Source: a virus (Duplodnaviria > Heunggongvirae > Uroviricota > Caudoviricetes). Taken from it: a DNA stretch of 64,000 nt. Shown in pieces: positions 21,512-48,750 of this stretch. Position 1 is the stretch's first letter; the number at the start of each line of letters is the position of its first letter. The notes beneath the pieces were generated by a model, which worked only from the letters and a program-made list of their open reading frames with translations, had not been told where the DNA came from and searched no databases. Where the stretch lies: IMG/VR virus record IMGVR_UViG_3300001687_000010; one strand, written 5' to 3'. The position numbers were made by a program, and so were the translations under genes.

Positions 21512-21541
21512 ACAGGTATAACCTAAAAAAAGGAGATAAAA

Positions 21542-22184: not shown

Positions 22185-22195
22185 GGGAGATAAAA

Positions 22196-22576: not shown

Positions 22577-22578
22577 AA

Positions 22579-23126: not shown

Positions 23127-23287
23127 AAACTTTAATCGCTTTAATGTTTGCTTTTTTAATCGGGTGTGCTCATAATCCCACTCCGGTTAGTCATGAGGTT
23201 GTTATTAAGTTTGAAAGCGAGATTCCGATTAATGTATCGGTATATAAAAGTTGTGAAGGTAATTGGAATTTTTGTAAATGGCAATAA
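23123..23287 (+). CDS. Small lipoprotein (54 aa)
   Basis: Not in the track. MKTLIALMFAFLIG-C lipobox; ATGA overlap with the pilin stop codon. Confidence 0.65.
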   Translation: MKTLIALMFAFLIGCAHNPTPVSHEVVIKFESEIPINVSVYKSCEGNWNFCKWQ

Positions 23288-23305
23288 AAGTTAAAGGAAT
23301 AAAAA

Positions 23306-23497
23306 ATGGATAAAATTATTAAAACCATCAAAGCATTTTTTTGGATTTTAACACTCAAACGAGATGATGCTTATAGCGGTGGTTCAGTTCATATTGCTTA
23401 TTTGCATACTGCTGTAAAAGGGCTGATATGGCTATGGGTATGTTTTTTTGGTGCAATGTTTTTACGGATTATTATAACCATAGTGGGGTTGTTTTAA
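23306..23497 (+). CDS. Small membrane protein
   Basis: Hydrophobic C-terminal helix; SD AAGGA. Confidence 0.55.
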   Translation: MDKIIKTIKAFFWILTLKRDDAYSGGSVHIAYLHTAVKGLIWLWVCFFGAMFLRIIITIVGLF

Positions 23498-23510
23498 GGA
23501 GAAAATAATC

Positions 23511-23571
23511 GAAAAAAAGTGAAAAAAAGACTCAAGTTTCCCTTGACTTTACCGATATTGTGTTATAGGAT
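23511..23571 (+). promoter_or_regulatory. Strong early promoter, extended class (copy 3)
   Basis: gaaaaaaagtgaaaaaaagactcaagtttcccTTGACT-N17-TAGGAT. Confidence 0.75.
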
Positions 23572-23601
23572 ATAGATATAACATACAAAAGGGAGATAAA
23601 A

Positions 23602-24873: not shown

Positions 24874-24882
24874 GAGAACGGG

Positions 24883-25095
24883 ATGAGATTAAAAGACGTT
24901 AATATACCGGATACTGATTTAATCGAAAAAATGCGGAAAAAGGTAGCCGAGCGCAAAAACGTAAAAATAAAATATGTTGATTATATAGGCGCACAGGACT
25001 ATGACGATATGGGATGGGGTTTTTATTTTAACATCACAGATAAAAAACATCCCGAGTTTATGTCCACGCTTATGGAAAGGTACAGACCTTTATAA
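24883..25095 (+). CDS. Hypothetical protein
   Basis: SD GGAG. Confidence 0.55.
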   Translation: MRLKDVNIPDTDLIEKMRKKVAERKNVKIKYVDYIGAQDYDDMGWGFYFNITDKKHPEFMSTLMERYRPL

Positions 25096-25173
25096 AATAG
25101 CCTCACAAACGCCACGTGTGGCCGAATTTGGGGTTTAAAAACGACATACCTAAACCGATAAGGGGGATATTAA

Positions 25174-25398
25174 ATGTCCGAGAAACGCTTTAAAGGTTTT
25201 ATTTACCTGATGGTTATGTTTTTAATGATGATGCTTATGGGAACAGTGGTTACAAAAGGTACATATATTAAAAAAACGACCAGAGCAAATCGGCAAACTA
25301 CCGTTTTTGTCGGAAAGGATACGGGAGCATCGATTAAATTTAAAACTATTAAACCGATTCATAAAACCGAAACCCTAATAATGAAAAGGAGTTATTAA
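25174..25398 (+). CDS. Membrane-anchored protein, possible pilin-like leader
   Basis: MSEKRFKG|FIYLMVMFLMMMLMG: basic leader, G|F site, hydrophobic helix, no E5. Confidence 0.55.
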   Translation: MSEKRFKGFIYLMVMFLMMMLMGTVVTKGTYIKKTTRANRQTTVFVGKDTGASIKFKTIKPIHKTETLIMKRSY

Positions 25399-25399
25399 A

Positions 25400-26683
25400 A
25401 TGATAGTGGAATGGTTTAAAAGGTTTATTAATAGGCATATTATTTGCACTTGTGAGCATCCCGATGTTTGTTTCGATTGTAATAAGGGCAATGAATCTTG
25501 CTATGTTCCCGGCCAGTGTGATTTAATTAAATGCCATATTGAACCCGATGAAGGATGGCCACGACCTAACCAAAAAGGATACGTCCTTATATCCGTAATG
25601 CTCATCCTCTGCCTTTTAACTATTATTGGGATAGCGTCCACCAATATAAGCAATACCGAATTGGCCATATCGGTTAACGAATCCATTTATCAAATGAATA
25701 TTTATGGCGCAGAGGCCGGTTTAGAAGTTGCTCCCGATTATTTAAAAGCAAACCTTACCCGTGCGGACTGGGATAATCCAGATTGGGAAGGCGGAGATAG
25801 TGATACTTTAGGTAATAATGTAACCTATACATATGTTATAAACCATTGGAAAGACGCTGATGGTAATATAATCCGAATGGGTGACGTGGACGGGGATTAT
25901 TTATGGGAACGAAACACGACCATAGGTGTACCGTTTGAAGTGGTACAAAGTGAAGGAACCCATCCACGTGGTGGAAAAACTAAATTAGAACATATATGGG
26001 AACCCGTTCCGCCTTACGTTATGCCCGAAGCGGCCTTATGGGTTAATAATATGGTAAATGGTAACGGTGTATCTGGTGCGATTGTCGGGGAAGGACCGGG
26101 GGATTCTTCGTTGCTATCTAAAGATTATTACGATAGTGATTATAATTGCCCTGCCGTACCGGATATTAAATACGAGTTAATGCCACCTGATATTAAATTC
26201 TCCGGTAATACCGGAGAAACTGAAACCTATGAATTAGCAGGGGCTACATATCCATTTCCGCAAGTAAAAGAAGCTTTAACTCATAACAAATATTGGGAAG
26301 TTGCTTCTACATTGGGTAATAAACTTCCGGCCACAATCGATTTAGGAACGCTCGATGACCCTGTTATTATTATTATCGATACCGGAAGTGATGTTAGCCT
26401 AAATCAAAACATCGTAGGCGCAGGAATTTTATACGTTGAAGGAGATTTAACCATATCTGGTAATTTTAGTTGGGAAGGATTGGTACTGGTAAACGGCAAT
26501 GTAACTTTTAATGGTGGTGGGGCAGCAAACTCCACTATGGTACGGGGTTCGGTGGTTGCGTCAGGAGACGCTGCAGCCATAAACGGTTCCGTGGATTTGA
26601 TATATGACTGCGAAGTTATGTCTAATTTACATGATAGTTTTTTAGCCTATAAGCGGACGCCAACTTGGAGATTTGTAAGATGA
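25400..26683 (+). CDS. PilX-like minor pilin / pilus assembly protein with a Cys-rich leader
   Basis: NQKG|YVLISVMLILCLLTIIGIASTNISNTE...YGAEAGLE matches the PilX N-terminus; C-terminal GAGILYVEGDLTISGNFSWEGLVLVNG beta-rich repeats. Confidence 0.8.
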   Translation: MIVEWFKRFINRHIICTCEHPDVCFDCNKGNESCYVPGQCDLIKCHIEPDEGWPRPNQKGYVLISVMLILCLLTIIGIASTNISNTELAISVNESIYQMNIYGAEAGLEVAPDYLKANLTRADWDNPDWEGGDSDTLGNNVTYTYVINHWKDADGNIIRMGDVDGDYLWERNTTIGVPFEVVQSEGTHPRGGKTKLEHIWEPVPPYVMPEAALWVNNMVNGNGVSGAIVGEGPGDSSLLSKDYYDSDYNCPAVPDIKYELMPPDIKFSGNTGETETYELAGATYPFPQVKEALTHNKYWEVASTLGNKLPATIDLGTLDDPVIIIIDTGSDVSLNQNIVGAGILYVEGDLTISGNFSWEGLVLVNGNVTFNGGGAANSTMVRGSVVASGDAAAINGSVDLIYDCEVMSNLHDSFLAYKRTPTWRFVR

Positions 26684-26871
26684 AAAAACGCTATTTTATC
26701 GAACTTGTAAAAGTCCGTGATGAGCGAGTTGTTTATAAAGGCTTGGTATGGACGACCAGTATGCCCAGACTCGTTGAAGAACTCGCATATAAGGGTTATA
26801 TGGTAACAACATATTACGAATGGGCTATCGGTTGTCAGCCCAAAATAATCCAGTTAGGGGAGATAAAATGA
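26680..26871 (+). CDS. Hypothetical protein
   Basis: Coupled ORF (MKKRYFIEL). Confidence 0.5.
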   Translation: MKKRYFIELVKVRDERVVYKGLVWTTSMPRLVEELAYKGYMVTTYYEWAIGCQPKIIQLGEIK

Positions 26872-26985
26872 AAAAAATGAAAAAATGTTGTCGGGAGAAT
26901 AAACCAAACGGCTATAATCCTCACCATATCTATATGTGCCCAGATTGTCAGACGGTACATCCGCCCGAAAAAAAGGAGAATTAAA

Positions 26986-27237
26986 ATGAAACTCGATTTT
27001 TCAGAATTAATTACAAAGTTAAAATCTCTTGAAACGGCTTTTAATAAAGCAGAAGACCCTGTAACACGTTTCGCTATTCTTGAAACCATCAATCATATCG
27101 GGGAAAAGGAAATTCCGATACGTGATTTTTGGTATAATCAGTATCGCAGGGCTACACTTAAAACATTCGGTGCGAACCCTGATGCAGACCCAAGTTCAGC
27201 AGAAGTATATGCATTGCGGCCTAACCGCACGGCCTGA
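26986..27237 (+). CDS. Hypothetical protein
   Basis: SD AGGAG. Confidence 0.6.
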   Translation: MKLDFSELITKLKSLETAFNKAEDPVTRFAILETINHIGEKEIPIRDFWYNQYRRATLKTFGANPDADPSSAEVYALRPNRTA

Positions 27238-27321
27238 AGTACCCGGAATTAAACCGTATTGCTGAATATTAATAGCAAACCATCCATCAGCTTCTTTGGC
27301 AGGTATGAAATAAAATAATTG

Positions 27322-27350
27322 TTTACAATTCCGCCTTATTATAGTATAAT
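27322..27350 (+). promoter_or_regulatory. sigma70-like early promoter
   Basis: TTTACA-N17-TATAAT. Confidence 0.75.
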
Positions 27351-27356
27351 GTATCC

Positions 27357-27596
27357 ATGATTACGCCTTCACCACCTACCGAAGACGAAAAAATCGCTAT
27401 GGTTGTTTGTAACGATAGGGTTTTATTTGAGATATCGGAGCAGAAAAACCGCAAGTGGACTTTTCTTATTAAAGGGGAAGGGCGTAAAATCAAAATGAAA
27501 GACTTACCCTTAAATAAAGCGCATAAATTGTTAATGCGAGCTATAAACATTAGAGCTGAATGGGAGAAAGAAAATGACTTGGGCAAATCAAAATGA
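27357..27596 (+). CDS. Hypothetical protein
   Basis: ORF track; start uncertain. Confidence 0.5.
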   Translation: MITPSPPTEDEKIAMVVCNDRVLFEISEQKNRKWTFLIKGEGRKIKMKDLPLNKAHKLLMRAINIRAEWEKENDLGKSK

Positions 27597-27966
27597 CCCG
27601 ACTTTTGAAAAGCAGATAGTTTTTGAACTAAACGAAGAAGCCTTAAAACGGATTCTCCAGTCATATATACGGGAAGTTAAAAAAGAACCCGTACCGGAAA
27701 TAGATGACCTTAAACTGCTTTTTCATGTTGGGGATGAGCGCACTGAAGACGGGACGGTATATTTTAGCTTTACCCAAAAGGATTTAGACGAATATTTAGA
27801 CCCTAAAGACGATTTTAATAGCGACCCGGATGATGAGAATAGCGAGAATAGCATTGATACTTGGAATTCTGTTAGCGTACTGCCGTGCGGAAAAGATTCA
27901 TGCCCAGTTGCAGAGGACAAGGTTCCACTTGAGGATGATAATTGGGAACTTGATAATACAGAATGA
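27574..27966 (+). CDS. Acidic hypothetical protein
   Basis: SD GGGAG. Confidence 0.6.
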   Translation: MTWANQNDPTFEKQIVFELNEEALKRILQSYIREVKKEPVPEIDDLKLLFHVGDERTEDGTVYFSFTQKDLDEYLDPKDDFNSDPDDENSENSIDTWNSVSVLPCGKDSCPVAEDKVPLEDDNWELDNTE

Positions 27967-28544
27967 AATTAATTGATATAGCTTTTGACCTTGACGGGTG
28001 TTTGGTTGATATAATGCCCGTTGTTAAAAAACTACTTAAAGAAAAACATGGGGCAGAAATGCTCCCCATAAAAAAATGGCGGATTTATACCGAGCCATTC
28101 CTACCGGATAATCTAATATGGGAGTGCATCCACGAATCTTACGAACAAATGGATGATATTGTTATTCTCCCCGGCGCACACGAGTTACTCTATAAACTTT
28201 TTTGCCTGTCGGACGGGGATGACCCTGTTAAAATCATTACGGCTCGGCCACCTAAACGAGCGGCCAATGCTACCTACCAATTTTTAAGTGAATATTTATG
28301 CGACTTTCCTTATGAACTGGTTATCACTTCAAACCATAGTAAATTACCGTACCTTAACCGATATAAGTATTACGTGGACGATAAACGGATTAACGCCATT
28401 GAGTTAGCCAGTGAGGGCATACACGTCTTTATGCCTAAATGGGAGTATAATACATTAGGAGTTAGAGAATATCCTAATATAACGCTAATAGACGGGGTTA
28501 AAGACCTAATTCCACGAGCAGAGGAGTTTATTAAGACCATATGA
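27963..28544 (+). CDS. HAD-family 5'(3')-deoxyribonucleotidase-like protein
   Basis: DLDGCLVD motif I, IITAR motif II, YYVDD motif IV. Confidence 0.8.
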   Translation: MKLIDIAFDLDGCLVDIMPVVKKLLKEKHGAEMLPIKKWRIYTEPFLPDNLIWECIHESYEQMDDIVILPGAHELLYKLFCLSDGDDPVKIITARPPKRAANATYQFLSEYLCDFPYELVITSNHSKLPYLNRYKYYVDDKRINAIELASEGIHVFMPKWEYNTLGVREYPNITLIDGVKDLIPRAEEFIKTI

Positions 28545-28786
28545 ATACTTTGGATGTGCAGGTTGGTGGAGACCATTATAAAACGATGGGCTTACAACCT
28601 TGGGAAATTATAGAAGCGAATAAATTGGATTTTTGGGAAGGAAATGCATTAAAATATTTATTAAGATGGCGTACTGATAAAGGCAGACCCGAGGAAGACC
28701 TCGACAAGGTTATTCATTATATAGAGCATATAAAGAATTTATATAAAAAAGGATATTATGCGACTTCTCCAGAATCGCTTACTTAA
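28541..28786 (+). CDS. DUF3310 family protein
   Basis: QVGGDHYK..QPWE..FWEGNALKYLLR..K..EDLDK. Confidence 0.85.
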   Translation: MNTLDVQVGGDHYKTMGLQPWEIIEANKLDFWEGNALKYLLRWRTDKGRPEEDLDKVIHYIEHIKNLYKKGYYATSPESLT

Positions 28787-29027
28787 TTTTGGTTGACCAT
28801 GTCTGGAAGCCTATTGCCGCACCGATAATAGAAGTAAATGCAAAATATATCCAAGCCGATGCTTCGGCTATAATTTGCAATCTGGATTCAGGTACAAAAA
28901 ACCATAAAGCAATGGTAAATCCTATTAATGCTCCCATAGATACCCAAGCCAAACCTACTTTATTCTCAAATCTTTGCCTTTCTAATTTACCGTTAACCTT
29001 TTTTTCACCCAAACCAGTATCTTCCAT
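28779..29027 (-). CDS. Small two-TM membrane protein (holin-like)
   Basis: Two hydrophobic helices; located at the end of the late baseplate operon. Confidence 0.5.
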   Translation of the reverse strand: MEDTGLGEKKVNGKLERQRFENKVGLAWVSMGALIGFTIALWFFVPESRLQIIAEASAWIYFAFTSIIGAAIGFQTWSTKIK

Positions 29028-29036
29028 TTTTACTCC

Positions 29037-29981
29037 TTAGTTATTAAAGTTTTCATTAACTGTTTTATTAGTTCGTATAATATCTTGCTGTTTACCAATA
29101 ATTCTTTGGTCTGCTTGTGTTATTTCAGTTGTCGGGTTTTGTGAAGATGATGTTACATTTACGAGGCTTCCCTCTGTAATTGTGGTCTCAAATAACGGGG
29201 ACATATCCCTAAATTCTATGGTTAAATCACATACAGTCGGATAACCATCTATATATGGTGCTTTCCAAGTAGGCTGAACGCTTAAACAAGCGGCATAATC
29301 GCAATCCAATAGCCCCGGTGGGTCGGTTCTAATAGAGAATATATGCGGAAAATCGATAGCAATAGCCCCTAATGAGCGAGGAGCTGAGTATTTTTGTAAT
29401 AATTTAACTGCATTAACAACTGTATTTCCACCTTCTGAGTCCGCCAGAGTAATCTCAAATTGCCATTGTCGTCTTTGAGAACCCGTATATGATAGCGGAG
29501 TATCAACTTTAAATTTAGGAATACGATAACTTGCAAGACCGGCATTTGTTAACAATGATTTAATTCTTTGACCAGTTGGGAGTTTTTTGGTTGCGCTAAA
29601 AGCCCGTCCGACAGAACTAACGATACCGGCTACCTTTTCAACACCCGCTTCAACCGTTAAAACCTTTTCCAACAAACGAGATTGTATAGATTGATATTCC
29701 TGCCATTCGTGCATATGCTGTTCTAAAATTGATAGAGGCGCAAGAAACTTAAATAAGGTTTTTCTTTTACCAGTTCTAATTTGACCACGACCGGCAGTTA
29801 TGATAGATTCTACCTCCATAGCCTGAAAACATAACCATAATGCATTTTTAAAATTAGCATGGGGGAATCTCCGGCCCGGGATTTTTATAAACGGAACTTC
29901 TGTAAATTGATTTTTAACTTGTGCATTTCGGGCCGATATTTTTTCTTGTACCACTCTATCTTGATTTTTAAATACTGGCAT
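29037..29981 (-). CDS. Baseplate tail-tube cap, T4 gp48-like
   Basis: YTGSQRRQWQFEITL, FPHIFSI and DGYP..CDLTIEFRDM motifs; position next to the tape measure gene. Confidence 0.65.
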   Translation of the reverse strand: MPVFKNQDRVVQEKISARNAQVKNQFTEVPFIKIPGRRFPHANFKNALWLCFQAMEVESIITAGRGQIRTGKRKTLFKFLAPLSILEQHMHEWQEYQSIQSRLLEKVLTVEAGVEKVAGIVSSVGRAFSATKKLPTGQRIKSLLTNAGLASYRIPKFKVDTPLSYTGSQRRQWQFEITLADSEGGNTVVNAVKLLQKYSAPRSLGAIAIDFPHIFSIRTDPPGLLDCDYAACLSVQPTWKAPYIDGYPTVCDLTIEFRDMSPLFETTITEGSLVNVTSSSQNPTTEITQADQRIIGKQQDIIRTNKTVNENFNN

Positions 29982-41191: not shown

Positions 41192-42745
41192 TTAATCGGT
41201 AAAACTGTTTGACTGCTCAAGCCACGACCAATCTTCTATAAAATCTTCAATATCCGCCAGAATTCCCCAAACATCCTCTTCCCGGCGGTCTATAAACTTA
41301 TAATTTTCATCTAAAATATTCATTTCAAAGAGGTAACATCCCCACATAAGTGCCATAACAAGGTCATCATGGGTATCTTTACCGAAAAACTTGCCATCCT
41401 CTTCGATAAATGAGCCGAGTTCCATAAGGGTTCGCTCATCATATATGCGTAAACTGCCGTCCTCTATAATCTTTTTCATAAGCAGGGCGGCTTTTGTTTT
41501 AGTTCCCTTCTCTCCGCCTGTCGACCTGATGCCAATATTCTTTATTTTAGAACCAGAGTTAATAAGGTTTTCGTACTCATATTCCCACCATAAGCGGTTT
41601 ACAACCGGAGCACCCTCGCCATTATTCTCTACCATAATGAATGCGCTATTATAATATATGGCTAAACGATATATAACATCCGAAAAATCATATACATCCG
41701 TCATATTATCCTGAAATACGGCAATTTGCGTCATTTTAATCGGCACTACACTTTCGATTTTAAGCACATGAATACAAGAATGGTTTTCACCAGTACCTTT
41801 TGCCGGGTCAACGCCTAAAACATATACCGCATTATCTATTGGTTTCTCCCATACTCTAAGTCGATTCTGCAAGTCAAGCATAACAGGTGCTTTATCTTGG
41901 GTTAAAATTACCGATAAAACCTCCGGTTTAATAAGAGTATTGGTCGAACCGATAAACTCAACCGCAAATTCTTGGGCAAACTTCTGCGGTCCTAAGTTCA
42001 TTAATTGTTCTTCCGCCCATTCTTCATCACGGCCGGGAACCTCTTCCCACGAAACTCTCGTATGAGCAAACGTATTACGCTTACTTTCAGCGTCCACATA
42101 TAGCTTATGGAATATGTTAAATAGACCATTCGGGGTCGAGATAATAATAATCTTGGATTTTCGGGAGGCCGAAATGGTAGGATAGTTGGCAGCCCAGAAC
42201 TCTTCCGCTTGATTTTCCGGTACAAAGGCAAACTCATCGCATACCAGTAGGTTCATTGCTTCACCACGGAATGCGTCCGCAGAGGTTGCGCTAATAACGA
42301 TACGGGTTCCGTTATCAAAAACGATAGCGGTCTCCTGATATTTAACAACTCCGGGTTTTAACCAATTCGGGAGCTGTTCATACATACGTTTAATTCGGCT
42401 TAGTATCATTTTAGCCGATGATTCTTTATTTGATACTATACCAACGGTCTTATCCTTATGAAACATAGCAAACCACAACACGTATGCCCCGACAATGGTC
42501 GTTTTACCACTTTGACGGCTACATAGGGCTATATTAAATCTATGTTTCTGAAATTTTTTAAGGAGTGTCCACTGATAACCATACGGCTCAAACTGGACTT
42601 CACCCATATCTGGATTAACGATTTTTACATACTTAATAAAATACGTTACATCCTTTGAGCACTTCTGGAGTTCGGAAATTTGCTCTACATCATATTCTAA
42701 CTCATCGTGCGGTCTCTTTACCGCACCGTCATACTTAATTGGCAT
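41192..42745 (-). CDS. terL: Terminase large subunit, T4 gp17-like
   Basis: SRQSGKTT Walker A, LLVCDEFAF Walker B, IISTPNG, LGVDPAKG and HDDLVMAL nuclease motifs. Confidence 0.97.
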   Translation of the reverse strand: MPIKYDGAVKRPHDELEYDVEQISELQKCSKDVTYFIKYVKIVNPDMGEVQFEPYGYQWTLLKKFQKHRFNIALCSRQSGKTTIVGAYVLWFAMFHKDKTVGIVSNKESSAKMILSRIKRMYEQLPNWLKPGVVKYQETAIVFDNGTRIVISATSADAFRGEAMNLLVCDEFAFVPENQAEEFWAANYPTISASRKSKIIIISTPNGLFNIFHKLYVDAESKRNTFAHTRVSWEEVPGRDEEWAEEQLMNLGPQKFAQEFAVEFIGSTNTLIKPEVLSVILTQDKAPVMLDLQNRLRVWEKPIDNAVYVLGVDPAKGTGENHSCIHVLKIESVVPIKMTQIAVFQDNMTDVYDFSDVIYRLAIYYNSAFIMVENNGEGAPVVNRLWWEYEYENLINSGSKIKNIGIRSTGGEKGTKTKAALLMKKIIEDGSLRIYDERTLMELGSFIEEDGKFFGKDTHDDLVMALMWGCYLFEMNILDENYKFIDRREEDVWGILADIEDFIEDWSWLEQSNSFTD

Positions 42746-42789
42746 GAAAAAAATACCTCCGATATTTACAACTATCAGAGGTATTTATA
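42746..42789 (-). promoter_or_regulatory. Terminator / SD-sequestering hairpin overlapping a late promoter
   Basis: Minus strand: AAATACCTCTGATA-GTTGTAAA-TATCGGAGGTATTT-TTTT-C-ATG; TATAAATA at 42789-42782. Confidence 0.8.
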
Positions 42790-42810: not shown

Positions 42811-44430
42811 TTATGGTGTAAAAATATTTGGATAAACTGCTTTAGCTATCAAAGGCGTTAAAGGATTGCCCGTATCAGCCGGAGCATCGGGAAGGTCTGC
42901 AGCCTCTTCAACTTCGTGTTTATTTTCTTTACGCTTAATTAATACAGGCTTTTTCTGAAATACAGTTTCAAGGATAATCTCCTTACCCCATAAATCGTAA
43001 ATATGGTTTAACGTCTTTTTGGTATATTCCAGTTGAAGCTCCGCACCGGCATATTGATGTTTAAGGTATAATTTGCCTGCGCCTTCATAATCCACGTTTA
43101 CTATTTCAACTTGAGGTATATGGCTATGGGCAAAACTGGCTACAATTAAATCCCGAATCTGCTTGTTATCGTGATTAGTTACGATAAGGTCATATGACAT
43201 CGGATTCTCCTTACCCACAAAAATATAAAGGTCAAGGTCATCAACCAATTCAACGGTTAAAAAGTTCTGCATAAAAAACCAATCTTGGTATGATTTAAGC
43301 ACTTTAAACATTTGATTGTGGCCGTCCATTGCTTTGGTATCCCAATTTTCTTTAACTTTTCGGTCTTGGCAATCTTCCCAATCCCGTCCATGTCGGCCTT
43401 TATCCCATCGGGTAACTATATCTTCCCATATTTTGCTTCCGATGAGATAAGGATTCATAGCGGTTCGGTGCTTGGCCTTAACGAGCGCATTGGCAAAATT
43501 ATATTCCGCATGAGCTGTTCTATCCAGAGTACCTTCGGTAAACAGGTCACGCATTAATTTTTCATGCCAATATGTTGCGAAACCTTCGTTCATATATTTG
43601 GTTTTAAGCTGTGGCCAAAAATACTGCCCTTCAGTCCGCAAAATCTCCAGTACATCTTTTTGCCAGTCTTCCAGTTTACGGGAATAATCTATAACATATC
43701 GGAGCAAATCACCGGCCGGTTCAATGGGCGTTTGGTTTTTAATCCTGCGCCATAGTTTTTGGTTATAAAGTTGAATATCCTGTTTAACTTTTTCTTCATC
43801 ATCATGGGAAGTGGTTAAATCAGCATAATCGCTTTTATTGATTTTGTGGTCTTTGCGCTTCTGCATTTCAAATACCCGTGCCTTTTTCTCATCTTCGGTT
43901 TGGGTATCAAATGGTGAAGAATGAAATTGCAAAGAATGTCCGGCATCTATGGTCATTTCCAGTTCATCAATCCCATAGGCTTTTTCATATTCGTTTAGCC
44001 GTTTACGAGCATTATCCATAATCTGGATAATATCCTTCCGGGTATTCTGGAAGTATTTATTCATAGTAAAAAACGCCACGTGACCTATCACGTGCGCCAT
44101 AACGAGGCATTGAACCCCGAAGGTATTGCTTTTCATAAGGTACGCACGTGAGGGGTCTGAATTAATTACAACCTCATACGGCAACCCATCGTACATATTT
44201 TCATTTATGGTACGAATTCGCTCATAATCCCGTCCGTATTTCCAGTTAGAAATGTTACCGGGAATGCGGTACGCCATAATCTCAAACATTTTCTGGTCTG
44301 GAATAACGTCCCATTCAATCTGGCAATAATTTAAACCGTAACCTTCGGCTAACTGGTTAAGGCGGTCTTCAATTTTAATCAGCCGTTGTAAATCATTGTT
44401 AGGAACTGGTTTATCCGGTTTATTATCCAT
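42811..44430 (-). CDS. spoVR: SpoVR / YcgB family protein
   Basis: YEVVINSDP, LVMAHVIGHVAFF, TKYMNEGFATYWH, NPYLIG motifs. Confidence 0.92.
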   Translation of the reverse strand: MDNKPDKPVPNNDLQRLIKIEDRLNQLAEGYGLNYCQIEWDVIPDQKMFEIMAYRIPGNISNWKYGRDYERIRTINENMYDGLPYEVVINSDPSRAYLMKSNTFGVQCLVMAHVIGHVAFFTMNKYFQNTRKDIIQIMDNARKRLNEYEKAYGIDELEMTIDAGHSLQFHSSPFDTQTEDEKKARVFEMQKRKDHKINKSDYADLTTSHDDEEKVKQDIQLYNQKLWRRIKNQTPIEPAGDLLRYVIDYSRKLEDWQKDVLEILRTEGQYFWPQLKTKYMNEGFATYWHEKLMRDLFTEGTLDRTAHAEYNFANALVKAKHRTAMNPYLIGSKIWEDIVTRWDKGRHGRDWEDCQDRKVKENWDTKAMDGHNQMFKVLKSYQDWFFMQNFLTVELVDDLDLYIFVGKENPMSYDLIVTNHDNKQIRDLIVASFAHSHIPQVEIVNVDYEGAGKLYLKHQYAGAELQLEYTKKTLNHIYDLWGKEIILETVFQKKPVLIKRKENKHEVEEAADLPDAPADTGNPLTPLIAKAVYPNIFTP

Positions 44431-44442
44431 TGGTTCACTCCT

Positions 44443-45756
44443 TTACTTTTTTTGCTTTTCAAAAAGCATATGTTTTAAAGCAGGGAATACGTGGTCTCTG
44501 CTTTGAATAATGGATAGCAAAAATCGTTTTTCGTCATTCTTAAAAAAGGATGTTCCGCTATCTTTGGTCTCGCTAAAATTCCACGTCTTTTGAATCTCGT
44601 CTAAAAGAACGTGCCAGTTACCGTACATCATATCCTCTAACCTGATTTCGACATAAGATAACATATTAATATCTTTAGCAAGCATCTCTCCCATACGTCC
44701 TACTGTCAATTTGGGGTCCCAGTCTTCACCGTCTGAAATATAAACGCAATATACGTTCCATTCTTCAACGGGAAATTCGGTATCTATAATATAGTTGCCC
44801 AATTCAAACGCACTGGCGCAAGAGGTTCCACCTGATTCGCCTTTATGGAAAAAGGTATCCTCATCAACCACTTGAGCGTCCGTTGTATGGGTAATAAATT
44901 TGATTTCCACGTTATCATAACACTTTTTAAGAAATTCAACAAGCCAAAATAACATTGAACGGGCGAGATATTTTTTATCTCGGGTCATTGAACCGGATAC
45001 GTCCATCATACAAATAACAACCGCTTGTGATTGGTATTCAACATCGGGTTCAATTTGCTTATAACGCAGGTCATCATCGTTAATATAAACACCGTCCTGA
45101 CGTTCCTTAACTTTATCAGCCGCAATTAATTCTAAGGCTTCGTTAATATCACCATGCGCTTGCCGTAATGCGTTATTAGCGGTATCTTCATCACAACCGG
45201 ATTCTTCCATTATCTCGTGGACAAATGCGGTCATACGTTTTACGGCTTCGAGCAGGGTGCGTTTTTTATGAAGTCGTGGTCTAATACCTTTTTTGGATAT
45301 GGTCTCAAATTTCCATCCTTTAGGCACGAGCTGTTTTGCCTTTGTTTTATCTTCAATCCACGGCAAACCTAAATCCTCAAACATAATCTGGATAAGATAA
45401 TCGATATCGACTTCAACATCCATATAATCAACACCGGGAATATTTCCGGGTTTATCGGGGTCACCGTCCCCGTCTCCGTCTTTGGGCTTACTATCAATTA
45501 CATCGCCCGGTCCGGAATCCCCTTGACCGACTCCACCGACTCCGCCGTCGTTTTGTCCGTGTACAAAACGATAATCTTTCAAACCCCTAACTGGAATCCT
45601 TACTTTTTTACCACGCTTTTTAGTAATAATGGATTCTTCGGCAATAACATCACGGACGTTTTTGCGAATGGCATCATCTATTTTTTCGTGGTGACGTTCG
45701 GCGTCTTTTTGTCCCTTTTCCGAAAAGTCCCACTCATCATGAACTACTATGCTCAT
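44443..45756 (-). CDS. yeaH: YeaH / YhbH (DUF444) vWA protein
   Basis: DAERHHEKI, DDLRYK, MMDVSGSM, FITHTTDA, ESGGT..ASA and SDGED motifs. Confidence 0.92.
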   Translation of the reverse strand: MSIVVHDEWDFSEKGQKDAERHHEKIDDAIRKNVRDVIAEESIITKKRGKKVRIPVRGLKDYRFVHGQNDGGVGGVGQGDSGPGDVIDSKPKDGDGDGDPDKPGNIPGVDYMDVEVDIDYLIQIMFEDLGLPWIEDKTKAKQLVPKGWKFETISKKGIRPRLHKKRTLLEAVKRMTAFVHEIMEESGCDEDTANNALRQAHGDINEALELIAADKVKERQDGVYINDDDLRYKQIEPDVEYQSQAVVICMMDVSGSMTRDKKYLARSMLFWLVEFLKKCYDNVEIKFITHTTDAQVVDEDTFFHKGESGGTSCASAFELGNYIIDTEFPVEEWNVYCVYISDGEDWDPKLTVGRMGEMLAKDINMLSYVEIRLEDMMYGNWHVLLDEIQKTWNFSETKDSGTSFFKNDEKRFLLSIIQSRDHVFPALKHMLFEKQKK

Positions 45757-45952
45757 CGGTATCTCCTTCCGTTTCTTTTTTATTTGTTGCCGTAAACCCT
45801 AAAGTTCGAGTTTGTTTTTCTTCATTAAAAACTTTTACCTTTTCAATCCAAGCCGGTATCTTATCAAAATCTAAAAATTTAGCGGAATGAGTTGAAGCTT
45901 CGGCATCGCAATCTTTATTGTCTATCGTTATTTTAACTGTTATCATTCTCAT
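45737..45952 (-). CDS. Hypothetical protein inside the prkA operon
   Basis: SD AGGAG. Confidence 0.5.
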   Translation of the reverse strand: MRMITVKITIDNKDCDAEASTHSAKFLDFDKIPAWIEKVKVFNEEKQTRTLGFTATNKKETEGDTDEHSSS

Positions 45953-45963
45953 CTCCTAAAAAG

Positions 45964-46000
45964 AAGCCCCGCCTGCGCTTGAACATCACAGGCAGGGCTT
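45964..46000. terminator. Hairpin downstream of prkA
   Basis: AAGCCC..GCCTG / CAGGCAGGGCTT interrupted stem flanked by A/T runs. Confidence 0.5.
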
Positions 46001-46028
46001 TTATGAGACCAGTTGGACTGGTAGGTAT

Positions 46029-48059
46029 TTAGGTCTTACGCAAAATCTCCCCGACAAAGGCCAGAAGCATATTAGCGCAATTTTCGCAGTAGCCCTTTTC
46101 CAGAAGCGTCTTAAACGCTCGGCTCCGATGGCTTTTTGCCTTCGGGTTTGTATTGGTCGGGGATGCAATACTCAAGTTAACGACATTCTTTAGGTCACCC
46201 ATAAGTTTTTTCTCAATGGCTTCCCGTAATGGCGCATAACTATCAAACTTGAATTCTTCACCGGATTCCAGTGCCGTTGATTTATGTACAAAGATACCAT
46301 TTCTAAAGGTATCTTTTGAAGCGGCCGGTACGCCGATAAGTTCTTCAAGGCTTCGCATTAAGGTATCATCGGGGTCGCTATATTCGCCGGTAACGGAGTC
46401 CATAACCTTTTCCTTTTTACAGAAGGCTTCGCAGTGCTCCATATAGCGGTTAAATAGCTCTTGCGCCTGTTCGTCATAGGCGTATAAGAAGCCCCGATTA
46501 ACTTCTTTTTTAGCCAGTTCTTTAAATTCCGAAACCACCGATTGTTTATCGGCCATAAGGGTATTAAGGTAATTTTTAATATCCTCATCCTTAATACCAA
46601 CGTGATGCTCGAAATTATGTTTTAAGGTACGGATAAGGTCTATCGGACTAACACAACCCTTCCAGACTCTCTTTTCCCCGTCCTTAAATTTGGCATCGGG
46701 ATTTTCATTTCGACCGAGGGCGATGTTTAAGGCGTTAATAATAAAACGTGGACTGATACCTTCCATACCTTCGCCCAGTTTTTTGCCTTCTTCACGAAGG
46801 GCTTTAACGTCTATATCGGTCTTTTTAAATTCGTCCGATACTTCGCCATCATAAAGCTTCATCTTCTGGATGGGGCTTGTGACTTTGGTCGATTTTTTAA
46901 GCCGTGATAATACGGCAAATTCGGCGGCAATCCGCAGGGTATGAGGAGCGATATGGATATCACGGAAGTCGGACTCCGCAATCATCTTTTCGTAAATTTT
47001 AATCTCCTCGCTAACCTTGAGATTCCACGGAACCTTTACAACGTACATTCTGTCGTGTAAAGCTTCGTTTTTCTTTTCGGAACGGAAGCTGTCATATTCC
47101 GTCTGGTTGGTATGGCTTAAAATGCTTGTATCAATATACATCTGCGGAAAACCGGGTGCTTTAATCAACTGCTCTTGGGCGGCTGAAATTAAAACGTAAT
47201 GGAATTTAATATCCGCTTTTAAAATTTCGATGTATTCGATAATTCCACCATTGGCAACCTGAAGTTCGCCGTCAAACTGATAACCACGTGGGTCGGTTTC
47301 ACCGAATCGGGCAATTTTAGCCATGTTAACACGTCCGATAAGCTCGGTAACGTCTTGGCTTTTTGGGTCGGATGGCTGAAACGTACCAATACAGGTTCGT
47401 TTCTGTTCCGATATATGAATCTGCTCTACCGGAATTTCTTCCCATTTTACAATGCCGTTTTCATCGGTGTATTTTTCTTCGATTTCCTGTTGACAATGTG
47501 GGCATAAGAAACCTTCAATTTTAACACCTAACTGCTCTTCCCAAAAAGGTCTATCCTCTTCGGGAATAAGGTGTAAGGGTTCTTCGTGAATCGGGCATCC
47601 TTTAATGGCGTATTTTTCGGTTTCATCACGCTCAAGCCCTTTTTTAATAAGGCCTGCGATTGTTGATTTACCTGATGATACAGGCCCCATCATAAGAAGG
47701 ATACGCTTGCCCGTTTCGGTTCTTCGTGCGGCCGCTTTCATAAAGCGGAGCAAATCATGCAGGGCTTCAAGGGGACGGTCACCGAAAATCTTGCCCTTGA
47801 AAAAATTATACTGGACAAGGTCTTCGTAACCTTGTGTTTTTAGCGCAGGGTCTACCGGACTCGTACCGTGTTTCATAATCATATTATAAATACGTCCGGG
47901 CGCAAAGTTAGCAATTTCGGGATTTTCCTGTACCTTTTCCAGATACGCAATAACTGGCCCTTCCCAGTTAGCCCGACCTTTACCTGTTTTTCTCTGTTCG
48001 AGAATAACCTTTCTAAAGTCGTCTGATTTCATCATTTTGTCCATTAGGTCTCCTTTCAT
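46029..48059 (-). CDS. prkA: PrkA / YeaG family AAA+ serine protein kinase
   Basis: LLMMGPVSSGKST, CPIHEEPLHLIP, DPKSQDVTELIG, ANGGIIEYIEILK, HTNQTEY, EALHDR and GISPRF motifs. Confidence 0.95.
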   Translation of the reverse strand: MKGDLMDKMMKSDDFRKVILEQRKTGKGRANWEGPVIAYLEKVQENPEIANFAPGRIYNMIMKHGTSPVDPALKTQGYEDLVQYNFFKGKIFGDRPLEALHDLLRFMKAAARRTETGKRILLMMGPVSSGKSTIAGLIKKGLERDETEKYAIKGCPIHEEPLHLIPEEDRPFWEEQLGVKIEGFLCPHCQQEIEEKYTDENGIVKWEEIPVEQIHISEQKRTCIGTFQPSDPKSQDVTELIGRVNMAKIARFGETDPRGYQFDGELQVANGGIIEYIEILKADIKFHYVLISAAQEQLIKAPGFPQMYIDTSILSHTNQTEYDSFRSEKKNEALHDRMYVVKVPWNLKVSEEIKIYEKMIAESDFRDIHIAPHTLRIAAEFAVLSRLKKSTKVTSPIQKMKLYDGEVSDEFKKTDIDVKALREEGKKLGEGMEGISPRFIINALNIALGRNENPDAKFKDGEKRVWKGCVSPIDLIRTLKHNFEHHVGIKDEDIKNYLNTLMADKQSVVSEFKELAKKEVNRGFLYAYDEQAQELFNRYMEHCEAFCKKEKVMDSVTGEYSDPDDTLMRSLEELIGVPAASKDTFRNGIFVHKSTALESGEEFKFDSYAPLREAIEKKLMGDLKNVVNLSIASPTNTNPKAKSHRSRAFKTLLEKGYCENCANMLLAFVGEILRKT

Positions 48060-48077
48060 TTTATTTGAGGTATACCG

Positions 48078-48106
48078 ATTATACCATTACCATAATAAAA
48101 TGTAAA
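48078..48106 (-). promoter_or_regulatory. sigma70-like early promoter for prkA-yeaH-spoVR
   Basis: TTTACA (48106-48101)-N17-TATAAT (48083-48078). Confidence 0.8.
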
Positions 48107-48123: not shown

Positions 48124-48606
48124 TTAATTATCAGTTGATTCTTTTTCTGAATCAGATTCATTGCCCCTACTTTCTAAGAGCTTGAGGACATCTTCACGGG
48201 ACGCTATGATTAAATTTTGATTTTTTGGGCGGTCAATTTTATATGATTTTATTTGGACTTCCTTTTCTTTTAACAAAGCCAGTTTTTTCCGTATATCCAA
48301 ATATTTGTTATAATTAGCATTATCAATTAATTTAGAACTGGCGGCAGTTATGGAGTTGATTATTTGACCGGCGACCTCCACCAATCGGGCGGAAAAGTTA
48401 CCGCTTTCCATCTCCTCTTTAACCATATCCAATATTTCATTTGCCCTTTCTATATTATTACGAAGGGCAGTTATATCAGAGGTTTCTTCTTCCCATTCTA
48501 ACTCAAACGGGTCAGGCCCCTCATCCACGATTTCCGGTTCAACCACTTCGGGTTCGGCCGGAATATCAAATTGTTCTTCTAAATTTTGCCTATTCAAAGT
48601 TGGCAC
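48124..48606 (-). CDS. terS: Terminase small subunit, T4 gp16-like
   Basis: SARLVEVAGQII and C-terminal NQNLIIASREDVLKLL patterns. Probable GTG start at 48606 after GAGGAGG; TATAAATA at 48676-48683. Confidence 0.7.
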   Translation of the reverse strand: MPTLNRQNLEEQFDIPAEPEVVEPEIVDEGPDPFELEWEEETSDITALRNNIERANEILDMVKEEMESGNFSARLVEVAGQIINSITAASSKLIDNANYNKYLDIRKKLALLKEKEVQIKSYKIDRPKNQNLIIASREDVLKLLESRGNESDSEKESTDN

Positions 48607-48715
48607 TACATCCTCCTCAACGCCCCACATCTATCTAAAAGTTCACACAAGGTTTAGAGTTCGGGGCTTCAAAGATATTTATAATTATACCACAAAATTT
48701 ATGGATTGTAAATGA

Positions 48716-48750
48716 AGAGAAAAGCCCCGTCCCTTGCGGAACGAGGCTTT
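48716..48750 (-). terminator. Intrinsic terminator after the major capsid gene
   Basis: AAAGCCTCGTTCC-GCAA-GGGACGGGGCTTTT. Confidence 0.8.

What the first reader, a model, noticed from the sequence alone, without database searches (positions are those of the whole stretch)
42811..48106. Complete PrkA-YeaH-SpoVR operon inserted between the small and large terminase genes
Seen: terS (48124-48606) is followed by a sigma70-like promoter, prkA, a small ORF, yeaH, spoVR and then terL. All three genes are full length and in the bacterial order. Established: T4 genes 16 and 17 are adjacent. PrkA/YeaG (AAA+ kinase), YeaH/YhbH (vWA) and SpoVR/YcgB form a conserved cellular trio linked to sporulation in Bacillus and to stationary-phase/nitrogen-starvation survival in E. 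coli. Inference: an early-expressed, host-derived stress/dormancy module that reprograms host physiology, or an AAA+/vWA chaperone co-opted by the phage.
Basis: partly seen in the sequence, partly recalled or inferred. Interest (0 to 1): 0.75.

Follow-up and report, generated by a model that had tools for sequence, protein, structure and literature searches.

The report
Phage PrkA-YeaH-SpoVR module between terminase genes
An uncultured T4-like phage carries intact, strongly conserved copies of the bacterial PrkA/YeaH/SpoVR starvation module between its two DNA-packaging genes. The module is inherited across a whole phage clade rather than being an assembly error, and it most plausibly breaks down host proteins to feed the infection, but phage copies of this trio have been seen before.

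Summary
On the minus strand the order is MCP, terS, prkA, a 71-codon ORF, yeaH (DUF444), spoVR, terL, and all three module genes are full length with intact motifs.

It is not a chimera. In a TerL-anchored survey, 51 of 54 related IMG/VR loci have spoVR upstream of terL. All three proteins form one phage clade next to six cellular MAG sequences. Their divergence tracks TerL and MCP, and dN/dS is 0.02-0.06, as low as for the capsid protein.

A strong sigma70-type promoter (TTTACA-N17-TATAAT) precedes prkA and is kept in nine relatives. That motif class otherwise marks this phage's early-like region. Hairpins follow prkA and spoVR, and terL has its own T4-type late motif. In Thermus phage Lalka27a the homologous trio is experimentally middle class, between late head genes and late terL.

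New here:
- A predicted YeaH-SpoVR complex: ipSAE 0.81, best control 0.01; the mark was reached by 58 of 80 solved complexes and 2 of 110 mismatched pairs.
- A zincin-like fold for SpoVR, which remains inconclusive.

Best reading: a YeaG/SpdA-like ATP-driven protein-turnover machine that serves the infection. The function is inferred, not shown.

This scan has already found the same module on other DNA, and a few phage genomes annotate it. I class it as a new member of a known kind.

The parts
48721..48750 (-). Terminator-like hairpin after the major capsid gene
   Evidence: 13-bp stem followed by a T-run. -21.6 kcal/mol, z -5.7.
48684..48712 (-). Sigma70-type promoter motif upstream of terS
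   Evidence: TTTACA-17-TATAAT with TG, 11/12 to consensus. One of 6 exact copies in the window against 0.2 expected.
48676..48683 (-). T4-type late promoter motif TATAAATA upstream of terS
   Evidence: Fully intergenic, 46 nt before the start codon. 7 of 18 such motifs sit in this promoter position, binomial p 1.7e-8.
48124..48630 (-). terS, T4 gp16-like small terminase subunit
   Evidence: PHROG 445 1.1e-7. Phage 44RR gp16 is the first-ranked PDB hit by profile (E 0.018) and by fold. The model has a long helical hairpin.
48078..48106 (-). Sigma70-type promoter motif upstream of prkA
   Evidence: TTTACA-17-TATAAT with TG. The exact motif is kept upstream of prkA in L001, L006, L007, L009, L013, L015, L020, L029 and L034.
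46029..48059 (-). prkA (yeaG-like): AAA+ ATPase with the PrkA C-terminal domain
   Evidence: PF08298 4.9e-108 and PF06798 2e-62. PDB 9xip 3.3e-114 over residues 29-673. Walker A G125-P-V-x-x-G130-K131-S132 is invariant. dN/dS 0.042.
45958..45999 (-). Terminator-like hairpin after prkA
   Evidence: GC-rich stem of 12-13 bp followed by UUCUUUUU. -27.2 kcal/mol, z -3.9.
45737..45952 (-). 71-codon ORF of unknown function; its end overlaps the yeaH start by 20 nt
   Evidence: No family hit. AGGAG ribosome-binding site. Kept only in the nearest relatives L001/L005 and L008. dN/dS 0.19.
44443..45756 (-). yeaH (yhbH-like): DUF444 protein with a vWA domain
   Evidence: PF04285 6.3e-95. MIDAS residues D252, S254, S256, T311 and D342 are invariant in 46 sequences. 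dN/dS 0.022. The N-terminal segment is predicted to bind SpoVR.
42811..44430 (-). spoVR (ycgB-like)
   Evidence: PF04293 2.2e-97 and PF24755 2.9e-13. Invariant H113, H117, E282 and H289. Model pLDDT 84.6. Zincin-like fold matches, Z up to 11.5. dN/dS 0.059.
42782..42789 (-). T4-type late promoter motif TATAAATA upstream of terL
   Evidence: Fully intergenic, 37 nt before the terL ATG. Overlaps the 5' arm of the hairpin.
42751..42786 (-). Hairpin between spoVR and terL, followed by a U-run; its 3' arm holds the terL Shine-Dalgarno GGAGG
   Evidence: 14-bp stem, -18.2 kcal/mol, z -6.8.
41192..42745 (-). terL, T4-type large terminase subunit
   Evidence: PF03237 9.1e-20 and PF17289 1.1e-8. PHROG large terminase families down to 5.9e-57.

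Best explanation
This is a functional, vertically inherited auxiliary module of a clade of uncultured T4-like phages with contigs up to about 190 kb.

Origin. One ancestor of the clade shared a prkA-yeaH-spoVR operon with bacteria. The nearest cellular versions are in Spirochaetota and 'delta-proteobacterial' MAGs. The direction of transfer is not resolved. The phage lineage has kept the operon between terS and terL ever since, with rare losses.

Expression (inferred). In this phage the module is wired as its own transcription unit inside the late structural block. A host sigma70-type promoter precedes prkA. A hairpin after prkA should lower yeaH and spoVR expression. A hairpin after spoVR should stop read-through and mask the terL ribosome-binding site. 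terL is then started from its own T4-type late promoter, which lies inside that hairpin. I infer expression from early or middle infection onward.

Mechanism (inferred, about 45%). The three proteins work like the cellular system. PrkA is the AAA+ motor. YeaH is a vWA/MIDAS adaptor whose conserved N-terminal segment clamps SpoVR. SpoVR is a metal-binding, zincin-like partner. [quoted passage not shown] By analogy, the phage module would switch on or speed up that turnover, releasing amino acids and energy for virion synthesis in slow-growing or nutrient-poor hosts.

What is shown: presence, integrity, inheritance, purifying selection and motif architecture. What is inferred: timing, complex formation and the proteolysis role.
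For: Integrity:
- Pfam hits lie far above the cut-offs.
- The Walker A motif, the vWA MIDAS residues and the SpoVR His/Glu residues are invariant.
- PrkA matches a solved PrkA structure, 9xip, at 3.3e-114.

Inheritance:
- The order terS-prkA-yeaH-spoVR-terL is kept in about 55 IMG/VR contigs from many samples.
- In the TerL-anchored survey, 51 of 54 loci have spoVR upstream of terL.
- The phage clade is monophyletic in the PrkA, YeaH and SpoVR trees (SH-aLRT 99-100). In all three it groups with the same six cellular sequences.
- Mantel correlations between the trio and TerL or MCP are r 0.63-0.85, p <= 0.0005.
- GC and codon use are within the phage's own range.

Selection:
- dN/dS is 0.042 for PrkA, 0.022 for YeaH and 0.059 for SpoVR, against 0.066 for MCP and 0.082 for TerL.
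- Mean pairwise identity of PrkA (0.69) equals that of MCP (0.70).
- Homing endonuclease ORFs sit between the trio genes in relatives.

Expression architecture:
- Six exact TTTACA-N17-TATAAT motifs against 0.2 expected. Four are in early-like regions, one precedes terS and one precedes prkA.
- The motif upstream of prkA is kept in nine relatives.
- TATAAATA is enriched in promoter position, p 1.7e-8. It is present before terS and terL and absent before the trio genes.
- Three stable hairpins flank the unit.
- In Thermus phage Lalka27a, the DUF444, SpoVR and PrkA homologues are middle class with their own mapped promoter, between late head genes and late terL (10.64898/2026.04.20.719267).

Mechanism:
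- E. coli YeaG is required for starvation-induced, largely non-specific cytoplasmic proteolysis that supplies amino acids and ATP (PMC13684143).
- B. subtilis PrkA shows ATP-dependent proteolysis in vitro (PMC9512850).
- The YeaH-SpoVR complex is predicted with ipSAE 0.81 and best control 0.01. The mark was reached by 58 of 80 solved complexes and 2 of 110 mismatched pairs. Runs agree in at least 89% of contacts, and partner pLDDT is at least 82.
- The predicted contacts fall on invariant residues: YeaH D18, R21, H22 and F64; SpoVR W63, G66, P439 and H458.
- No solved YeaH or SpoVR homologue exists by sequence, so the pass is unlikely to come from memory of a known complex.
Against: - No transcript, protein or activity data exist for this phage. 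The host is unknown.
- Promoter and terminator calls are motif and folding predictions.
- In about half of the clade prkA overlaps terS with no promoter between them. Timing may therefore differ within the clade.
- B. anthracis PrkA had negligible protease and kinase activity in vitro (PMC13001217).
- The E. coli work shows dependence on YeaG, not that YeaG is the protease. It says nothing about YeaH or YcgB.
- SpoVR lacks the catalytic Glu of HExxH; its motif is H-V-I-G-H.
- The link between SpoVR and peptidases has no sequence-level support (hhalign probability 13%).
- The trio has been lost in some relatives (L002, L337), so it is not essential.
- All three proteins score far below the NCBIfam equivalog cut-offs, so function may have drifted.
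Confidence: 0.45

Rival explanations
1. Signalling or dormancy reprogramming. PrkA would act as a Ser/Thr kinase or regulator that pushes the host into, or holds it out of, a stress, persister or sporulation-like state, so as to prolong productive infection.
For: The family is historically annotated as a serine kinase (Pfam PF06798; NCBIfam name). The cellular trio is tied to stationary phase, nitrogen starvation and sporulation (PMC13684143 references; PMC13001217). The host-type promoter before prkA allows expression before late genes.
Against: [quoted passage not shown] It was negligible for B. anthracis PrkA. The nearest cellular relatives are not from spore formers. Retention of all three genes under dN/dS 0.02-0.06, together with a predicted YeaH-SpoVR complex, fits a multi-part machine better than a lone kinase.
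Confidence: 0.2
2. A phage-directed chaperone or protease. The AAA+/vWA/SpoVR machine would act on the phage's own head or packaging proteins, for example in prohead maturation or terminase or portal assembly. That would explain why it travels with terS and terL.
For: The terS-trio-terL block is kept in 51 of 54 relatives. It stays intact when the flanks are rearranged, as in L029 and L034. In many relatives prkA overlaps terS. In unrelated Thermus phages the trio again lies beside portal or TerL. From general knowledge, AAA+/vWA pairs are often assembly chaperones.
Against: In Lalka27a the homologues are middle class while the flanking head genes and terL are late. The names 'vWA' and 'AAA family' do not recur in its virion protein table. 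In this window, a separate promoter and hairpins insulate the trio from terL. A second phage clade (L060-L083) and phage RsoM2USA carry the trio away from recognisable packaging genes. Trio-less relatives keep homologous head and terminase genes (L002, L337). The junction also holds unrelated ORFs in L002, so it may simply tolerate insertions.
Confidence: 0.15
3. Counter-defence. The module would remove or disable host defence proteins, or defeat a starvation or abortive-infection response of the host.
For: Expression from a host-type promoter is possible. The window's early-like block carries an anti-restriction gene, so this phage does invest in counter-defence. A proteolytic machine could in principle be aimed at defence proteins.
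Against: There is no specific evidence. The trio sits in the structural block, not with the early small ORFs. The cellular system acts non-specifically. The PADLOC library was not searched.
Confidence: 0.08
4. Assembly chimera or host contamination: a bacterial operon mis-joined into a phage contig.
For: Only the cellular affinity of the three genes and a slightly higher GC for prkA (0.433 against a window mean of 0.397).
Against: The same junctions recur in dozens of independent assemblies. The trio co-diverges with TerL and MCP. The phage clade is monophyletic. The phage's own promoter and late motifs lie in the junctions.
Confidence: 0.01

Closest known systems
Cellular prkA-yeaH-spoVR operon of six Spirochaetota and 'delta-proteobacterial'/Myxococcota MAGs (loci L084-L089)
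   Same: Same three genes, same order, tightly packed. They group with the phage clade in all three trees, SH-aLRT 99-100. Identity is 54-57% for PrkA and 38-45% for YeaH and SpoVR.
   Different: No phage genes are detected beside them. They lack the 71-codon ORF and the phage promoter and hairpin layout. The direction of transfer is unresolved because the trees are unrooted.
E. coli yeaG(spdA)-yeaH plus ycgB, and Bacillus prkA-yhbH plus spoVR
   Same: Same Pfam families and the same conserved motifs. These systems are the source of the functional model: starvation-induced proteolysis (PMC13684143) and ATP-dependent proteolysis in vitro (PMC9512850).
   Different: The phage proteins score far below the NCBIfam equivalog cut-offs: 291 against 576, 334 against 468 and 220 against 679. 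From general knowledge, the third gene is unlinked in E. coli and Bacillus and the genes are under RpoS or sporulation sigma factors. Here all three are linked and sit behind phage-type signals.
Thermus phages Lalka27a/27b/8, phiYS40 and TMA
   Same: Phage-borne DUF444, SpoVR and PrkA next to portal or TerL. In Lalka27a the trio is a middle-class unit with its own promoter inside a late block. This parallels the layout inferred here.
   Different: The order is permuted (yeaH-spoVR-prkA). PrkA identity is only 31-35% and the lineage is separate in the PrkA tree, on long branches. The hosts and phage types are unrelated, and phiYS40 has an extra 616-aa ORF inside the trio.
Ralstonia jumbo phage RsoM2USA and a second IMG/VR phage clade (L060-L083)
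   Same: Complete trios in phage genomes. The RsoM2USA paper annotates PrkA and SpoVR (PMC8504454).
   Different: Identity is 26-38%. They are separate lineages in the trees. The second clade has the order yeaH-spoVR-prkA and is not next to recognisable packaging genes. The contigs reach 361 kb.
AAA+/vWA chaperone pairs such as MoxR-type RavA-ViaA and CbbQ-CbbO (from general knowledge)
   Same: An AAA+ ATPase is encoded next to a vWA/MIDAS protein that serves as an adaptor.
   Different: PrkA has its own AAA+ subfamily and an extra C-terminal domain. A third partner, SpoVR, is obligatory here and is predicted to bind the YeaH N-terminus, not the vWA domain. Membership was not tested.

Membership tests
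PrkA/YeaG family (AAA+ ATPase with PrkA C-terminal domain) | Both Pfam domains, AAA_PrkA and PrkA C-terminal, above the gathering score | tested here: met
   361.8 and 211.6 bits against cut-offs of 25. Matches solved structure 9xip at 3.3e-114 over residues 29-673.
PrkA/YeaG family (AAA+ ATPase with PrkA C-terminal domain) | Intact Walker A P-loop | tested here: met
   G125, P126, V127, G130, K131 and S132 are invariant in 10 phage PrkAs. The motif reads GPVSSGKST in the translation.
PrkA/YeaG family (AAA+ ATPase with PrkA C-terminal domain) | Equivalog of the enterobacterial protein (NCBIfam NF011999) | tested here: not met
   291 bits against a cut-off of 576. It is a family member but not an equivalog.
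PrkA/YeaG family (AAA+ ATPase with PrkA C-terminal domain) | ATPase, protease or kinase activity | not testable with these tools
   Needs biochemistry. The literature disagrees (PMC9512850 against PMC13001217).
YeaH/YhbH (DUF444, vWA) | DUF444 above the gathering score | tested here: met
   319.1 bits against 27. The best NCBIfam hit is spore_yhbH at 334 bits, below its equivalog cut-off of 468.
YeaH/YhbH (DUF444, vWA) | Complete MIDAS metal site (DxSxS, T, D) | tested here: met
   D252, S254, S256, T311 and D342 are invariant in 46 sequences.
SpoVR/YcgB | SpoVR and SpoVR_C domains above the gathering score | tested here: met
   326.8 and 50 bits against cut-offs of 27 and 27.6. NCBIfam PRK11767 scores 220 bits, below its equivalog cut-off of 679.
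Linked prkA-yeaH-spoVR module | All three genes adjacent on one strand | tested here: met
   The same order occurs in the sister cellular loci.
Linked prkA-yeaH-spoVR module | Physical association of the components | tested here: inconclusive
   YeaH-SpoVR prediction: ipSAE 0.81, best control 0.01. The mark was reached by 58 of 80 solved complexes and 2 of 110 mismatched pairs. This is a model, not a measurement. PrkA was not tested because of the size limit.
Zincin (gluzincin) metallopeptidases, considered for SpoVR | Zincin catalytic-domain fold | tested here: inconclusive
   In the wide VIA-align search almost all of the top 50 chains are zincin peptidases or DUF885. Z is 11.5 with rmsd 3.7 over 194 residues for 3o0y, and about 9 for M1 aminopeptidases. 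Z in this range can arise by chance for helical models. Foldseek found nothing.
Zincin (gluzincin) metallopeptidases, considered for SpoVR | HExxH motif with the catalytic Glu | tested here: not met
   The invariant motif is H113-V-I-G-H117, with Val in the Glu position. hhalign places the M1 HExxH on R265-Q269 instead.
Zincin (gluzincin) metallopeptidases, considered for SpoVR | Third metal ligand Glu on a later helix (NEG motif as in M1) | tested here: inconclusive
   The invariant N281-E282-G283 in MNEGFA aligns with WLNEGFA of M1 domains taken from genomes. hhalign P-value 0.002, probability 13%. There is no HMM-level hit.
T4-type terminase pair (gp16/gp17) | Large subunit with Terminase_6N and Terminase_6C | tested here: met
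   71.7 and 35.6 bits against cut-offs of 22 and 22.6.
T4-type terminase pair (gp16/gp17) | Small subunit related to gp16 | tested here: met
   PHROG 445 1.1e-7. Phage 44RR gp16 ranks first by profile (E 0.018) and by fold (E 0.43). Each result is weak alone, but they agree.

The most novel reading that the evidence does not exclude
The phage runs its own version of the newly described YeaG/SpdA starvation proteolysis programme, a viral 'autophagy-like' step. From middle infection, PrkA (the motor), YeaH (an adaptor that clamps SpoVR through its N-terminus) and SpoVR (a zincin-derived metal protein) would turn the host cytoplasmic proteome into amino acids and ATP for virion synthesis. This would let T4-like phages reproduce in starved, slow-growing sediment or anaerobic hosts. 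It would be a protein-level counterpart of host DNA degradation for nucleotides.
Probability: 0.3. Interest if true: 0.8.

Novelty: new member of a known kind. Interest (0 to 1): 0.55.

Why it matters
PrkA, YeaH and SpoVR form one of the most widespread bacterial modules whose mechanism is still unclear. A 2026 study (PMC13684143) tied YeaG to bulk protein recycling during starvation.

A large clade of T4-like phages has kept the whole trio under selection as strict as on its capsid protein. That says the module pays off during infection. It also offers a compact, co-evolving three-gene set for working out the mechanism.

- YeaH's conserved N-terminus is predicted to grip SpoVR.
- SpoVR may be a zincin-derived metal protein.

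If the proteolysis reading holds, it adds protein recycling to the ways phages cope with starved hosts. This matters for phage ecology in nutrient-poor habitats.

The find is not unique. Thermus phages, one jumbo phage and earlier windows of this scan carry the trio too.

Tried and rejected
- Megablast of the 8.8-kb region against GenBank phages: no match.
- No whole genome is held for this window. Read coverage and expression could therefore not be checked directly.
- No tRNA genes in the window, so no host clue from that source.
- SpoVR against the PDB by Foldseek: nothing at E <= 0.001. SpoVR profile against PDB sequences: nothing even at E 10. Pfam scan of 48 SpoVR sequences at E 10: no peptidase family recurs. 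hhalign against M1 domains: probability only 13%. The peptidase link is therefore left as a lead.
- I asked whether the link to packaging genes is general. The neighbours of the second phage clade showed no packaging genes, so it is not.
- TATAAATA is not enriched by raw count (18 against 14 expected). Only its position is enriched.
- I tried to use trio-less relatives as outgroups. In the TerL tree they nest among trio-bearing rows, on long branches and with a weak root. Loss is more likely than late gain, but this is not firm.
- A chimeric assembly is rejected on synteny, co-divergence and composition.
- One paper search was set too loosely and gave nothing useful. The 'YeaG cryo-EM' search returned only unrelated papers. 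No paper was found for PDB 9xip.
- PrkA with YeaH could not be sent to the complex predictor, because together they exceed the 1000-residue limit.

Full report
**What is there**

The window is part of a T4-like myovirus. A roughly 30-kb minus-strand block encodes, in transcription order:
- a gp2-like DNA end protector, portal, prohead protease, scaffold and gp23-like major capsid protein;
- then terS, prkA, a 71-codon ORF, yeaH, spoVR and terL;
- then the head-tail adaptor, sheath stabiliser, tail tube, sheath and baseplate hub.

PrkA (676 aa) carries both PrkA Pfam domains (4.9e-108 and 2e-62). YeaH (437 aa) is DUF444 (6.3e-95). SpoVR (539 aa) has the SpoVR and SpoVR_C domains.

The small terminase call rests on three results that agree:
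- PHROG 445 at 1.1e-7.
- Phage 44RR gp16 is the first-ranked PDB hit by profile, E 0.018.
- The same protein ranks first by fold.

**Not a chimera; an inherited part of a phage clade**

- A search with PrkA found about 55 IMG/VR contigs from many samples with the order terS-prkA-yeaH-spoVR-terL. PrkA identity is 60-97% and TerL identity 50-94%.
- A wider search found 375 viral stretches that encode a PrkA relative. The best 80 are all at least 59% identical to this one, on contigs up to 189 kb.
- A survey anchored on TerL, and so independent of the trio, gave 54 related loci with at least 2.5 kb upstream. Of these, 51 have spoVR upstream on the same strand.
- The exceptions are L296 and L316, which have only about 3 kb of upstream sequence, and L337, where terS lies 700 nt from terL. 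L002 (TerL 47% identical) also lacks the trio and has two reverse-strand ORFs in the junction.
- In a TerL tree the trio-less rows nest among trio-bearing ones. This suggests rare loss, but the branches are long and the root is weak.
- GC, GC3 and codon use of the three genes lie within the spread of the window's other genes.

**Phylogeny and selection**

- In separate PrkA, YeaH and SpoVR trees the phage clade is one group (SH-aLRT 99-100). In each tree it shares a branch (99-100) with the same six cellular sequences, from Spirochaetota and 'delta-proteobacterial'/Myxococcota MAGs. Those loci carry the same gene order and no detected phage genes.
- The trio therefore moved as a unit, once, between cells and this phage lineage. 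The unrooted trees do not give the direction.
- A second IMG/VR clade with the order yeaH-spoVR-prkA, the Thermus phages and the jumbo phage RsoM2USA are separate lineages.
- Within the clade, pairwise identities of the trio proteins correlate with those of TerL and MCP (Mantel r 0.63-0.85, p <= 0.0005).
- PrkA is as conserved as the capsid protein (mean identity 0.69 against 0.70).
- Against the closest relative, dN/dS is 0.042 for PrkA, 0.022 for YeaH and 0.059 for SpoVR. The values for MCP and TerL are 0.066 and 0.082.
- Relatives carry HNH and zinc-finger endonuclease ORFs, and once an epimerase gene, between the trio genes.

**Motifs**

- The Walker A loop of PrkA is invariant.
- The full MIDAS set of YeaH (D252, S254, S256, T311, D342) is invariant.
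- H113, H117, E282 and H289 of SpoVR are invariant.
- All three proteins score far below the NCBIfam equivalog cut-offs. They are a diverged subfamily, not copies of the E. coli or Bacillus proteins.

**Expression layout (inferred from sequence)**

- The exact motif TTTACA-N17-TATAAT occurs six times in the window against 0.2 expected by chance.
- Four copies lie just upstream of plus-strand genes in regions of small ORFs. These regions hold an anti-restriction gene and an RNA-binding protein gene, so they look early.
- The other two copies lie upstream of terS and upstream of prkA.
- The copy before prkA is kept exactly in nine relatives with only 66-97% PrkA identity. In the other half of the clade prkA abuts or overlaps terS, and a similar motif often sits before terS instead.
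- The T4 late-promoter word TATAAATA is not more frequent than chance overall. However, 7 of 18 copies are fully intergenic and 5-46 nt upstream of a same-strand start codon (binomial p 1.7e-8). These include the copies before terS, terL, the scaffold gene and the sheath gene. None precedes prkA, yeaH or spoVR.
- Stable hairpins with U-runs follow the capsid gene (-21.6 kcal/mol), prkA (-27.2) and spoVR (-18.2).
- The last hairpin holds the terL ribosome-binding site in its 3' arm, and the terL late motif overlaps its 5' arm. A transcript arriving from spoVR would fold it. A transcript started at the late promoter would lack most of the 5' arm. This would uncouple terL from the trio.

**Independent experimental parallel**

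In Thermus phage Lalka27a, genes 12-14 are annotated as a vWA protein, a hypothetical protein and an AAA ATPase. In the near-identical Lalka27b they hit DUF444, SpoVR and the PrkA domains in Pfam. In Lalka27a these genes are classed as middle and have their own mapped promoter, P12-M. The portal and minor head genes before them and terL after them are late (10.64898/2026.04.20.719267). The names of the vWA and AAA proteins do not recur in that paper's virion table.

**Mechanism**

The literature has shifted:
- B. subtilis PrkA was reported to be an ATP-dependent protease and not a kinase (PMC9512850).
- B. anthracis PrkA showed neither activity in vitro (PMC13001217).
- In E. coli, YeaG (renamed SpdA) is required for a starvation-induced, largely non-specific breakdown of cytoplasmic proteins that supplies amino acids and ATP (PMC13684143).

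1. YeaH and SpoVR are predicted to bind.
   - ipSAE is 0.81 (median of three runs) and the best control is 0.01.
   - The mark was reached by 58 of 80 solved complexes and 2 of 110 mismatched pairs.
   - Runs agree in at least 89% of contacts, and partner pLDDT is at least 82.
   - My own alignments were used, so the calibration counts hold only roughly.
   - The interface uses YeaH residues 2-25 and 58-92, including the invariant D18, R21, H22 and F64. On SpoVR it uses residues 37-70, 399-419 and 438-476, including the invariant W63, G66, P439 and H458. The vWA domain is left free.
   - No solved homologue of either protein exists by sequence.
2. SpoVR may have a zincin-like fold.
   - A confident model (pLDDT 84.6) gave no Foldseek match.
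   - In the wide VIA-align search, almost all of the top 50 chains are zincin metallopeptidases or DUF885. Z is 11.5 with rmsd 3.7 over 194 residues at best, and about 9 for M1 aminopeptidases.
   - The invariant MNEGFA aligns with the WLNEGFA helix of M1 peptidases (hhalign P 0.002, probability 13%).
   - However, the His motif is H-V-I-G-H, without the catalytic Glu, and no sequence method supports the link.
   - I therefore call SpoVR 'zincin-like, possibly non-catalytic' and leave it open.

**Verdict**

The most likely account is a selected auxiliary machine that works like the cellular one and promotes turnover of host proteins during infection. It is probably expressed before, and independently of, terL.

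My rough odds:

| Claim | Odds |
|---|---|
| The module is real, functional and inherited | about 0.95 |
| It has its own transcription unit in this phage | about 0.6 |
| Its role is protein turnover | about 0.45 |
| Rival: signalling or dormancy control | 0.2 |
| Rival: action on the phage's own head or packaging proteins | 0.15 |
| Rival: counter-defence | 0.08 |
| Rival: assembly chimera | 0.01 |

**Novelty**

PHROGs already holds families for all three proteins. Thermus phage and RsoM2USA genomes annotate them. Earlier windows of this scan reported the same arrangement on other DNA. This is a new member of a known kind. Its value lies in the strength of the conservation data and in the testable leads on mechanism.

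Noticed in passing
window 3370-3398, 16603-16631, 19599-19627, 27322-27350 (+); 48078-48106, 48684-48712 (-): Six exact copies of TTTACA-N17-TATAAT against 0.2 expected. Most have T(A/G)G before the -10 hexamer, and each lies just upstream of a same-strand gene. This looks like the phage's set of strong host-sigma70 promoters.
   Followed up: partly
window 14330-29040 (+): Early-like block of many small ORFs. It holds an anti-restriction protein (17757-18647, PHROG 7245, 5e-72) and a 485-aa 'RNA-binding protein' (19725-21182, PHROG 850, 1e-99).
   Followed up: no
window 5893-12744 (-): A 2283-aa ORF with no PHROG match at E 0.001. It is followed by a 377-aa ORF (13220-14353) with a weak virion-structural-protein hit.
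   Followed up: no
window 42751-42789 (-): The terL late-promoter word overlaps the 5' arm of a 14-bp hairpin whose 3' arm holds the terL Shine-Dalgarno sequence. Read-through transcripts would fold and mask it, and late-started transcripts would not. This is a possible switch that insulates terL from upstream transcription.
   Followed up: partly
window 42811-44430 (-), SpoVR model mea9cf0002c7d: SpoVR, a family with no solved structure by sequence, gives a confident model. Its best structural neighbours are almost all zincin metallopeptidases or DUF885. It has invariant HxxxH and NEG(F/W)A motifs but no catalytic Glu. I found no paper that makes this link.
   Followed up: partly
L007 11121-11837; L036 6514-7134 and 9228-10103; L045 3050-3655; L010 6331-7368; L019 13377-15050 and 16576-17559: Relatives carry HNH and CapR/treble-clef zinc-finger endonuclease-like ORFs between the trio genes. 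One relative has an NAD-dependent epimerase/dehydratase between spoVR and terL.
   Followed up: partly
L029 and L034: In two relatives the flanks are rearranged: the adaptor gene lies inverted upstream of terS, and the capsid gene lies inverted downstream of terL. The terS-trio-terL block stays intact.
   Followed up: no
L060-L083; also L097, L107, L108, L115: A second phage clade on contigs up to 361 kb carries the trio in the order yeaH-spoVR-prkA at about 35% identity. The same permuted order occurs in some Bacillota MAGs and in Thermus phages.
   Followed up: partly
window 45737-45952 (-): A 71-codon ORF between prkA and yeaH has a good ribosome-binding site and dN/dS 0.19. It is kept only in the nearest relatives and matches no family.
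   Followed up: partly
PDB 9xip, 9xiq, 9xir: Three recent PDB entries, 30 chains in all, of a 692-aa 'Serine protein kinase' match PrkA at 3.3e-114. I found no paper for them. They may show the oligomeric state of the family.
   Followed up: no
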